64,000 nucleotides of DNA from a virus. Each line of letters opens with the position of its first letter. Position 1 is the stretch's first letter. Both the position numbers and the translations under genes were made by a program. The stretch covers positions 1 to 64,000 of IMG/VR virus record IMGVR_UViG_3300033145_003080. One strand, written 5' to 3'. The notes below the pieces were generated by a model. That model did not search any database. It had not been told where the DNA came from and saw only the letters and a program-made list of their open reading frames with translations. This document shows, piece by piece, positions 57,824 to 57,897 of this stretch.

Positions 57824-57897
57824 CCGCCCGTAAGAGAATCGAACTCTTTCAATTAAGGAATTTAGAGTTCCTCGCCTTCCCATTTGGCTAACGGGCG
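57824..57897 (-). tRNA. Amber suppressor tRNA (anticodon CUA), Gln-like body
   Basis: Cloverleaf: CGCCCGT/ACGGGCG acceptor, GCC-AAATGGGAA-GGC D arm, AGGAA-CTCTAAA-TTCCT anticodon arm, AAGAG-TTCGATT-CTCTT T arm, G discriminator; CCA not encoded. Confidence 0.85.

What the first reader, a model, noticed from the sequence alone, without database searches (positions are those of the whole stretch)
57824..57897. Amber suppressor tRNA in a genome that is not globally recoded
The anticodon loop is CT-CTA-AA. The D arm and G73 resemble tRNA-Gln, and GG/TTC are retained, unlike tRNA-Pyl. Long structural ORFs are uninterrupted under the standard code, and TAG serves as an ordinary stop (e.g. the TAGTG stop/start overlap at 17282). 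The tRNA therefore appears to serve conditional, local readthrough, possibly an early stage of TAG reassignment.
Basis: partly seen in the sequence, partly recalled or inferred. Interest (0 to 1): 0.7.

Follow-up and report, generated by a model that had tools for sequence, protein, structure and literature searches.

The report
Phage amber-suppressor tRNA, self-gated cassette
A 149-kb uncultured phage that uses the normal genetic code carries a single ordinary tRNA, a reader of the UAG stop codon. Its only evident targets are UAG codons placed inside its own small operon, a design shared by dozens of distant phages and not found in the papers I could search.

Summary
The tRNA is real: minus strand, 57824-57897, Rfam 54 bits, anticodon CUA, G73, GG and TTCGA loops kept. 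It is the only canonical tRNA in the 149-kb genome.

The genome is not recoded. Coding density is 0.919 under code 11 and 0.922 with TAG as sense. TAG ends 27 of 183 ORFs. In 13 of 17 TAG-ending ORFs the ortholog in a related 186-kb phage stops at the same place, with TAA, TGA or TAG.

The tRNA closes a four-part operon:
- a leader ORF with two in-frame TAGs and a Pro-Pro-stop end;
- an unknown helical protein, X;
- a Pth2-fold hydrolase-like gene with an in-frame TAG;
- the tRNA.

Of 50 related phage loci, 47 hold a CUA tRNA on the same strand, 26 of them within 100 nt of the Pth2-like gene. A TAG-bearing leader occurs in 31 of 37 loci, against 2 of 37 for a TGA control.

Local, conditional readthrough is supported. 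"Early stage of reassignment" is not favoured. Nothing is experimental, and the inserted amino acid (Gln is my best guess) and the cassette's output are unknown.

This scan has already noted the same cassette on other DNA (179 notes, at least 121 genomes).

The parts
57824..57897 (-). tRNA with anticodon CUA (amber suppressor). No CCA is encoded, the discriminator is G73, and the first pair is C1-G72.
   Evidence: ARAGORN; Rfam 54.3 bits; cloverleaf as the minimum-energy fold; only canonical tRNA of the genome.
58998..59066 (-). Leader ORF preceded by a Shine-Dalgarno site: MLPL-TAG-ITTQHPP-TAG-LYPRKRKPP-TAA. The in-frame TAGs lie at 59054-59052 and 59030-59028, and the ORF ends Pro-Pro-stop.
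   Evidence: Sequence. Both TAGs and the PP-stop are conserved in relative G001 at about 70% background identity. Equivalent TAG leaders occur in 31 of 37 loci against 2 of 37 for a TGA control. It is the only such leader in the genome.
58932..58993 (-). Hairpin pairing GUUAUACUCUUUA (58993-58981, starting 5 nt after the leader stop) with the Shine-Dalgarno region of gene X (58945-58932).
   Evidence: The minimum-energy fold pairs these segments (z-score only -1.6). This is an inferred anti-SD switch.
58604..58930 (-). Gene X, 108 aa: a helical hairpin with the motif RHxHIAYCxLRG. Function unknown.
   Evidence: Found upstream of the Pth2-like gene in at least 36 loci and fused to it in 8. AlphaFold2 pLDDT 93.7. 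No Pfam or specific PDB match. 1,059 clusters at E<=1e-10.
58330..58641 (-). Pth2-fold hydrolase-like gene, 103 codons, with an in-frame TAG at codon 63 (58455-58453). It overlaps the end of X by 38 nt.
   Evidence: Translation. Uninterrupted homologs of 95-128 aa. Profile against PDB: top hits are Pth2, E 7e-4. AlphaFold2 pLDDT 94 and Foldseek probability 1.0, TM 0.7-0.8, to six Pth2 structures.
58235..58308 (-). tRNA-like RNA with encoded CCA and a 6-nt 'anticodon' loop.
   Evidence: ARAGORN and Rfam 34.8 bits. A counterpart exists in G001.
58023..58212 (-). Two further tRNA-like elements (58212-58126 and 58116-58023), with acceptor and T arms but aberrant anticodon arms.
   Evidence: Sequence; weak Rfam tRNA-Sec-like hit; folds.
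57898..58022 (-). 125-nt structured RNA directly 5' of the tRNA.
   Evidence: Minimum free energy -43.8 kcal/mol, z -3.2, 0 of 200 shuffles as stable. No Rfam family.
57103..57762 (-). HNH endonuclease gene with its own promoter-like site (57796-57768). A neighbour, probably a mobile insertion.
   Evidence: PHROG 4.8e-41; promoter scan.
56079..56978 (-). RlaP-family RNA-repair nucleotidyltransferase. A neighbour, also present in G001.
   Evidence: Pfam PF10127, 5e-67; tblastn match to L012.

Best explanation
The tRNA is a working UAG decoder that the phage uses for programmed readthrough inside its own operon, not to recode its genome.

The operon on the minus strand reads: leader, gene X, Pth2-like gene, tRNA-like RNAs, tRNA(CUA). 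No terminator is predicted within it.

Inferred steps:
1. The tRNA is cut out of the transcript, receives CCA from the host enzyme, and is charged by a host synthetase, most likely with Gln.
2. It competes with release factor 1 at the two UAGs of the leader.
3. Only ribosomes that read through both UAGs reach the Arg-Lys-Pro-Pro-stop end. A slow or arrested ribosome there would cover the anti-SD segment and free the ribosome-binding site of gene X.
4. X is then translated. The overlapping Pth2-like gene needs a third readthrough.

X and the Pth2-like protein would therefore be made only when UAG readthrough is high. They act together, since they are fused in some phages. My guess, with low confidence, is that they feed back on the suppressor or on peptidyl-tRNA produced by readthrough.

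Shown here: the tRNA, the in-frame TAGs, their conservation, and the standard code. Inferred: charging, arrest, SD unmasking, and what the proteins do.
For: - Canonical tRNA with anticodon CUA; sole tRNA of the genome.
- Standard code: coding density 0.919 against 0.922 with TAG as sense. TAG ends 27 of 183 ORFs. In 13 of 17 TAG-ending ORFs the G001 ortholog ends at the same place, with TAA (6), TGA (1) or TAG (6).
- An in-frame TAG lies inside a conserved Pth2-fold domain.
- 47 of 50 related loci hold a CUA tRNA, always on the same strand; 26 lie within 100 nt downstream and 39 within 1 kb downstream. Three MAG contigs show the same.
- 9 of the 51 family members examined (this phage's gene plus the 50 related loci), and one of three MAG copies, carry one in-frame TAG each, mostly at different positions. 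None carries an in-frame TGA or TAA.
- A leader with TAG occurs in 31 of 37 loci, against 2 of 37 for the TGA control. Both TAGs are conserved in G001.
- The base after leader TAGs is a purine in 36 of 42 cases, against 14 of 27 at genuine TAG stops. +4U favours termination (PMC5289835 abstract).
- tRNA bodies are replaceable while the anticodon is kept: this tRNA and G001's share 46 of 80 aligned columns, and N73 varies across the set.
- X and the Pth2-like protein are fused in 8 loci.
- No terminator-like site between 59700 and 56900.
Against: - Nothing is experimental. Expression, processing, charging and suppression are all untested.
- The phage ends 27 of its own genes in TAG, including 984-aa and 881-aa structural proteins, with no excess of backup stops. 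A strong suppressor should therefore be costly.
- The SD-hiding hairpin is only modestly more stable than shuffles (z -1.6).
- This leader ends R-K-P-P, not the studied RAPP or RGPP.
- The circuit looks self-contained: only one such leader per genome and no other convincing amber-interrupted gene. Its output is therefore unexplained.
- The Pfam PTH2 model does not hit the gene. From memory, the Lys reported as catalytic in archaeal Pth2 is not conserved across the family.
Confidence: 0.65

Rival explanations
1. Transitional state. The suppressor was acquired as a first step towards genome-wide TAG-to-Gln recoding (the Borges et al. model), and the few in-frame TAGs are the first to accumulate.
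For: The published model has suppressor acquisition by standard-code relatives come before recoding (preprint 10.1101/2021.08.26.457843). The Pth2-like family also occurs in TAG-recoded Lak phages. The genome is AT-rich, GC 37.5%.
Against: - TAG stops are not depleted: 27 against 31 TGA here, and 33 against 27 in G001.
- In-frame TAGs are confined to the cassette and are non-random: leader codon 3, purine at +4.
- All 50 relatives' loci and two whole relatives' genomes are standard-code, despite family divergence down to about 30% identity.
Confidence: 0.08
2. Host-directed suppressor. The tRNA's main job is to read through UAG stops of host genes, for takeover or counter-defence. The leader, X and Pth2-like part is only a governor that keeps suppression within bounds.
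For: The cassette senses readthrough but has no other phage client, so the output may lie outside the phage genome. UAG suppression does change bacterial physiology (PMC11848022 abstract). The phage also carries a real tmRNA and an RNA-repair enzyme, so it invests in translation control.
Against: No host is known, and no target can be named. The phage's own 27 TAG stops would be hit too. The idea is compatible with, not exclusive of, the best explanation.
Confidence: 0.15
3. Termination-capacity sensor. The tRNA is a fixed competitor that lets the leader report RF1 activity. X and the Pth2-like protein are rescue factors made when termination at UAG fails.
For: There is an analogy with prfB, where an in-frame UGA reports RF2 level (textbook knowledge). 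Pth2 enzymes release peptides from peptidyl-tRNA. Iyer et al. proposed a ribosome-rescue role for phage PTH2 (PMC7824862).
Against: Pth2 is not known to act on ribosome-bound peptidyl-tRNA. No evidence here bears on RF1. The extra TAG inside the hydrolase gene in about one cassette in five fits a suppressor-dependent protein as well.
Confidence: 0.1
4. Not a functional suppressor: either a decaying tRNA whose anticodon mutated to CUA by chance, or a true tRNA-Pyl.
For: ARAGORN labels it tRNA-Pyl. It lies among three aberrant tRNA-like elements and next to a homing-type HNH gene. It lacks an encoded CCA.
Against: - It scores 54 bits with an intact cloverleaf, U33 and A37.
- The same anticodon recurs in 51 tRNAs of 47 loci with quite different bodies.
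- G18G19 and the T loop are present, and the D loop is of normal size, unlike tRNA-Pyl as I recall it.
- In-frame TAGs sit in a conserved domain.
Confidence: 0.03

Closest known systems
Suppressor tRNAs of stop-codon-recoded phages (code 15: crAss-like and Lak phages; Borges et al., Peters et al., PMC9523058)
   Same: A phage-encoded tRNA(CUA), probably charged by a host synthetase with Gln, in a phage infecting a standard-code host. The Pth2-like family is shared with Lak phages.
   Different: Here TAG stays a real stop genome-wide. In-frame TAGs are limited to the tRNA's own operon. No RF2 or synthetase gene was found, and no HDV-like or theta ribozyme hit lies next to the tRNA.
Amber suppressor tRNAs of standard-code jumbo phages, such as Xanthomonas phage XacN1 (PMC5852040)
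   Same: CUA tRNAs in a phage with the standard code and with TAG-terminated genes.
   Different: For XacN1 the authors could find no target. Here targets are identified, and the tRNA is the only tRNA, not one of dozens.
E. coli supE (glnV) and Su7 type amber suppressors
   Same: A class I tRNA with a CUA anticodon. It has G73, G10, G2-C71 and a GCCA...AGGC D arm, as in tRNA-Gln (E. coli sequence from memory; 2 of 17 phage tRNA-Gln).
   Different: It has C1-G72, C3-G70 and A38 instead of the Gln-type U1-A72, G3-C70 and U38. It is a natural, conserved gene, not a laboratory mutant.
prfB (RF2) autoregulation through an in-frame UGA
   Same: A stop codon inside a coding sequence turns the balance between termination and continuation into a regulatory signal.
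   Different: prfB uses a +1 frameshift and senses the release factor it encodes. Here readthrough is by a dedicated tRNA and controls two other proteins.
RAPP/RGPP-type arrest peptides and SecM/MifM-type leaders (PMC7897499, PMC10951233, PMC10987492, PMC12992588)
   Same: A short upstream ORF ending in basic-x-Pro-Pro, followed by a hairpin that hides the next gene's Shine-Dalgarno site.
   Different: The arrest site can be reached only after UAG readthrough. The motif here is RKPP followed by a stop. The controlled genes are not protein-export components. Arrest is untested.
PTH2 of jumbo phages (Iyer et al. 2021, PMC7824862)
   Same: A Pth2-fold protein in large phages, alongside RNA-repair genes.
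   Different: This subfamily escapes Pfam PF01981 and is tied to gene X and a CUA tRNA. That paper does not mention suppressors.

Membership tests
Canonical elongator tRNA (Rfam RF00005) | Cloverleaf scoring above the family's gathering threshold of 29 bits | tested here: met
   54.3 bits over the full model 1-71. Cloverleaf is the minimum-energy fold.
Amber suppressor tRNA | Anticodon CUA in a 7-nt loop with U33 and a purine at position 37 | tested here: met
   Loop is C-U-C-U-A-A-A. The same loop occurs in 37 of 51 related tRNAs.
Amber suppressor tRNA | In-frame UAG codons in genes that need them read | tested here: met
   Pth2-like codon 63 lies inside a conserved fold. There are two conserved leader TAGs.
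Amber suppressor tRNA | Measured insertion of an amino acid at UAG | not testable with these tools
   Needs a reporter assay or mass spectrometry.
tRNA-Gln-derived suppressor (supE-like) | GlnRS identity set: G73, weak 1-72 pair, G2-C71, G3-C70, G10, U35, A37, U38 (E. coli rules, from memory) | tested here: inconclusive
   Present: G73, G2-C71, G10, U35, A37. Absent: it has C1-G72, C3-G70 and A38. The D arm GCCA...AGGC is shared with 2 of 17 phage tRNA-Gln. The aligned codon in G001 is CAG.
tRNA-Pyl | Small D loop without G18G19, no T-psi-C consensus, 3-nt variable loop (from memory) | tested here: not met
   The D loop is AAUGGGAA with GG, the T loop is UUCGAUU, and the variable region is 5-7 nt. 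pyl genes were not searched for.
Stop-codon-recoded (code 15) phage | Coding density 5-10% higher with TAG as sense (criterion of PMC10879173) | tested here: not met
   0.919 against 0.922 genome-wide, with no 5-kb window gaining more than the TGA control. The same holds for G001 and G004.
Stop-codon-recoded (code 15) phage | TAG aligned with sense codons in orthologs of structural genes | tested here: not met
   TAG aligns with ortholog stop codons in 13 of 17 cases. The one TAG-to-CAG case is in the cassette.
Pth2 (peptidyl-tRNA hydrolase 2) for the partner gene | Pth2 alpha/beta fold | tested here: met
   Foldseek probability 1.0, TM 0.69-0.80, to 2zv3, 1q7s, 3erj, 1xty, 1wn2 and 1rlk. Model pLDDT 94.
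Pth2 (peptidyl-tRNA hydrolase 2) for the partner gene | Match to Pfam PF01981 above its cut-off | tested here: not met
   No hit at E<=1 for the protein, nor in a six-frame search of the genome at E<=10. A profile of the family against PDB sequences does hit Pth2 first, at E 7e-4.
Pth2 (peptidyl-tRNA hydrolase 2) for the partner gene | Catalytic residues and hydrolase activity | tested here: inconclusive
   Q23, H26, D80 and T86 are invariant and lie in the motifs shared with Pth2. The Lys of the archaeal G-K motif is not conserved across the family. Activity is untested.
RAPP/RGPP-type arrest peptide (for the leader) | C-terminal Arg-(Ala/Gly)-Pro-Pro that stalls the ribosome | tested here: inconclusive
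   This leader ends R-K-P-P-stop. Relatives end RGPP, RSPP, RDPP, KPP or RPP. Stalling was not tested.

The most novel reading that the evidence does not exclude
The tRNA is the core of a natural, self-contained 'readthrough-stat'. An arrest-type leader measures UAG readthrough (phage tRNA against host RF1). It switches on X and the Pth2-like protein, a two-part or fused hydrolase directed at the suppressor's aminoacyl- or peptidyl-tRNA, which then caps suppression. This widespread module (over 1,000 gene-X clusters) would be the control unit that lets standard-code phages carry a suppressor safely. Code-15 recoding, as in Lak phages, could have grown from it.
Probability: 0.2. Interest if true: 0.9.

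Novelty: new variant of a known kind. Interest (0 to 1): 0.7.

Why it matters
Suppressor tRNAs have been reported in standard-code phages with no identifiable target (XacN1), or read as a prelude to recoding.

Here the targets can be named. They sit in the tRNA's own operon, in a layout conserved across dozens of distant large phages. This turns "why does a standard-code phage carry an amber suppressor?" into a testable circuit. The circuit consists of a UAG-gated, Pro-Pro-ending leader, an uncharacterised protein family with more than 1,000 clusters, and a divergent Pth2-fold enzyme.

If confirmed, it would be a natural example of gene control by a dedicated suppressor tRNA. It could also provide parts for synthetic code-expansion circuits and a clue to how phage recoding is kept under control.

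Tried and rejected
- No nucleotide match in GenBank phages. No exact copy of the tRNA in IMG/VR.
- Pfam finds nothing for the Pth2-like protein or for X.
- X's fold is a generic helical hairpin: Foldseek found nothing below E 0.6, VIA Z was at most 8.1 with unrelated coiled coils, and the Atlas was uninformative.
- Other readthrough candidates were set aside. In 28501-29418 and 127998-129278 the downstream ORFs have their own SD and start. The extension of the 984-aa protein overlaps the next gene out of frame and is not kept in G001.
- There is no excess of backup stops after TAG.
- G000 has no release-factor, Glu/GlnRS or CCA-adding enzyme gene.
- No known ribozyme lies next to the tRNA. G001 has only a sub-threshold twister-P1 hit.
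- The amino-acid identity could not be assigned from nearest-neighbour or identity-element comparison.
- The Lak locus shows no recognisable leader.
- Bacterial and archaeal genomes gave only three MAG contigs, so no host was inferred.

Full report
**Observation**

ARAGORN and Rfam both place a 74-nt tRNA at exactly 57824-57897, on the minus strand. It scores 54.3 bits against a gathering score of 29, with E 6e-9 for the window.
- The acceptor stem is CGCCCGU/ACGGGCG and the discriminator is G73.
- The D stem has three pairs (GCC/GGC) and the D loop is AAUGGGAA.
- The anticodon loop is C-U-C-U-A-A-A and the T loop is UUCGAUU.
- No CCA is encoded.
- The sequence folds into the cloverleaf unaided.

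ARAGORN's 'tRNA-Pyl' is only its name for the CUA anticodon. The GG and T-loop features argue against a pyrrolysine tRNA.

**The genome**

The window is the first 64 kb of a 149,037-bp IMG/VR virus record. It has 114-bp perfect inverted terminal repeats and GC 37.5%.

ARAGORN and Rfam find only three things in the whole genome:
- this tRNA;
- one aberrant tRNA-like RNA;
- a true tmRNA (162 bits), which lies outside the window.

**The code is standard.** Three lines of evidence agree.
1. Greedy ORF coverage is 0.919 under code 11 and 0.922 with TAG as sense, 0.933 with TGA as sense and 0.927 with TAA as sense. No 5-kb window gains more from TAG than from the controls.
2. Stop usage in 183 selected ORFs is TAA 125, TGA 31 and TAG 27, so TAG is not depleted.
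3. A related complete phage, G001 (186 kb), shares about 70-78% nucleotide identity over 79 kb. Of 17 TAG-ending ORFs with a G001 ortholog, 13 end at the same position, and the ortholog's stop is TAA (6), TGA (1) or TAG (6).

TAG-terminated genes include 984-aa and 881-aa proteins of the structural block. I found no release factor, Glu/GlnRS or CCA-adding enzyme gene.

**What the tRNA reads**

On the minus strand, 58641-58330 is a 103-codon frame with one TAG at codon 63.
- Uninterrupted homologs of 95-128 aa exist, and one 62-aa product 87% identical stops at the same Trp.
- Pfam does not recognise the protein.
- A profile of 47 members hits archaeal Pth2 first in the PDB (2zv3, E 7e-4).
- An AlphaFold2 model (pLDDT 94) matches six Pth2 structures, with Foldseek probability 1.0 and TM 0.69-0.80.

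The TAG lies between the third helix and the conserved EPD...TAIA strands, so a product truncated there lacks half the fold.

Further upstream, at 59066-58998, lies a leader ORF with a Shine-Dalgarno site: MLPL-TAG-ITTQHPP-TAG-LYPRKRKPP-TAA. In G001 the leader is MLPI-TAG-VTSIHPP-TAG-IFYRKRKPP-TAA. Both TAGs and both Pro-Pro elements are kept while neighbouring codons change.

Five nucleotides after the leader stop, a 13-nt segment pairs with the Shine-Dalgarno region of the next gene, X (58930-58604). This pairing appears in the minimum-energy fold, but its z-score is only -1.6.

No terminator-like site lies between 59700 and 56900. A promoter-like site follows the tRNA, upstream of the HNH gene.

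**Comparative evidence**

A pattern search of IMG/VR with the Pth2-like alignment gave 50 loci. They come from contigs of 5.7 to 470 kb, with GC 24-49% and 30-65% protein identity.

*The tRNA.*
- 47 loci contain a CUA tRNA, always on the gene's strand.
- The tRNA lies within 100 nt downstream in 26 loci and within 1 kb downstream in 39.
- In two of the three exceptions the contig ends at or just after the gene.
- In many loci it is the only tRNA.
- Three MAG contigs from the genome collection show the same pairing.

*Gene X.*
- X lies directly upstream of the Pth2-like gene in at least 36 loci and is fused to it in eight, so the two act together.
- X has 2,341 clusters at 50% identity with E<=1e-3, and 1,059 with E<=1e-10, in the 1.84-billion-protein library.
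- Its model (pLDDT 93.7) is a helical hairpin with no informative match.

*The leader.*
- An SD-led short ORF with at least one in-frame TAG lies upstream of X in 31 of 37 loci, against 2 of 37 when TGA is used as the read-through codon.
- The typical form is M-x-TAG-(I/V)-x-(K/R)-P-P-stop.
- The base after leader TAGs is a purine in 36 of 42 cases, and in 28 of 30 first TAGs. At genuine TAG stops of this genome it is a purine in 14 of 27.
- +4U is reported to strengthen termination (PMC5289835 abstract). From memory (Bossi 1983), a purine after UAG favours suppression.
- Only one such leader exists per genome in G000, G001 and G004.

*In-frame TAGs in the hydrolase gene.* Of the 51 Pth2-like genes examined (this phage's own plus the 50 related loci), nine carry one in-frame TAG each, and so does one of the three MAG copies. 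Most are at different positions. None carries an in-frame TGA or TAA.

*Genetic code of the relatives.* All 50 loci look standard-code locally. The whole genomes G001 and G004 are standard-code throughout.

**The tRNA itself across the family**

The anticodon is constant but the bodies are not.
- N73 is A in 21 tRNAs, U in 16, G in 12 and C in 2. The 1-72 pair is mostly G-C.
- This tRNA and that of its close relative G001 share only 46 of 80 aligned columns, although the flanking genes are 50-65% identical.

Selection therefore acts on UAG reading, not on one tRNA lineage.

The inserted amino acid cannot be assigned. Points for Gln in this phage:
- G73, G2-C71 and G10;
- a D arm found in only 5 of 328 co-sampled tRNAs, 2 of them tRNA-Gln;
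- CAG at the aligned codon of G001;
- the known tendency of CUA tRNAs to be charged by GlnRS or LysRS in E. coli (Normanly et al. 1990, from memory).

**Mechanism proposed**

1. The operon is transcribed as one unit.
2. The tRNA is processed, gets CCA from the host, and is charged by a host enzyme.
3. At the leader's UAGs it competes with RF1.
4. Ribosomes that terminate there are too far from the anti-SD to matter. Ribosomes that read through both UAGs reach R-K-P-P-stop. Termination after Pro-Pro is known to be slow, and RAPP/RGPP motifs arrest ribosomes (PMC10951233, PMC12992588).
5. A paused ribosome would cover the anti-SD and open X's ribosome-binding site.
6. X is made. The Pth2-like protein needs a third readthrough.

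The dependence on suppression efficiency would thus be steep.

What X and the Pth2-like protein then do is not shown. Feedback on the suppressor (deacylation, or hydrolysis of its peptidyl form) or rescue of termination failures are the obvious options.

**Comparison with what is known**

- Phage suppressor tRNAs are well known in recoded phages and have been seen in standard-code relatives.
- In XacN1, two CUA tRNAs had no identifiable target.
- PTH2 in jumbo phages was noted without any link to suppressors.
- Six full-text searches found no description of a natural suppressor-gated leader or of this cassette.
- Among GenBank phage records, only Lak phages and one uncultured huge phage carry the Pth2-like family. 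No cultured example exists.

**Within this scan**

The cassette has been noted repeatedly on other DNA: 179 notes in at least 121 genomes. Those notes include a later check that kept the observation but priced the bold reading low, because nothing is experimental and a strong stop-reader should be costly. I share that caveat.

**Verdict**

The reading 'local, conditional readthrough in a non-recoded genome' is supported by comparative evidence. 'Early stage of reassignment' is not favoured.

The tRNA is a new variant of a known kind: a phage suppressor tRNA used for self-gated regulation instead of recoding.

Noticed in passing
G000 80244-80644, minus strand (L007:16244-16644); outside the window: A bona fide phage-encoded tmRNA gene (Rfam RF00023, 162 bits). 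ARAGORN also calls one in the relative G001 (180683-181090).
   Followed up: partly
window 58308-58235, 58212-58126 and 58116-58023, minus strand: Three tRNA-like RNAs lie between the Pth2-like gene and the CUA tRNA. They have good acceptor and T arms (two with encoded CCA) but 6-nt or otherwise aberrant anticodon loops. The first has a counterpart in G001 (L012:10871-10950, Rfam tRNA 31 bits). Function unknown.
   Followed up: partly
window 58022-57898, minus strand: A 125-nt strongly folded RNA lies directly 5' of the tRNA (-43.8 kcal/mol, z -3.2) and matches no Rfam family. G001 has a different structured stretch in the same place, with a sub-threshold twister-P1 hit (L012:10976-11045, 21.7 bits).
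   Followed up: partly
G000 127998-129278, plus strand (L010:15998-17278); outside the window: A 138-aa ORF ending in TAG is followed in frame, after four sense codons, by a 283-aa ORF. G001 has the same layout of TAG, four codons, then ATG. This is a possible readthrough fusion, but the base after the TAG is a pyrimidine in both and the second ORF has its own SD.
   Followed up: partly
G000 1-114 and 148924-149037: Perfect 114-bp inverted terminal repeats at the ends of the record. The relative G001 has direct terminal repeats instead.
   Followed up: no
window 56079-56978 and 57103-57762, minus strand; also 62021-62626: An RlaP-family RNA-repair nucleotidyltransferase (Pfam 5e-67) lies just downstream of the tRNA and is also present in G001. 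An HNH endonuclease gene sits between it and the tRNA, and another lies a few kb upstream of the operon.
   Followed up: partly
G000 96678-98337, plus strand (L008:14678-16337); outside the window: A transposase gene (97069-98337; PHROG phrog_506, 7e-101), possibly IS200/IS605-type, preceded by a small unscanned 147-aa ORF (96678-97121), sits inside the large structural-gene block.
   Followed up: no
window 58604-58641, minus strand: The end of gene X and the start of the Pth2-like gene overlap by 38 nt in different frames. The conserved C-terminus of X (V/I-C-x-S-A) is therefore explained by the conserved KLYVLVR-coding start of the Pth2-like gene, and not by a signal of its own.
   Followed up: yes
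window 40465-42483, minus strand: A 672-aa protein (PHROG phrog_1735, 880 bits; annotated YfaP or DUF2135 in some records) is 47-49% identical to proteins of many cultured large phages of Vibrio, Serratia, Caulobacter and Klebsiella. Its function is unknown.
   Followed up: no
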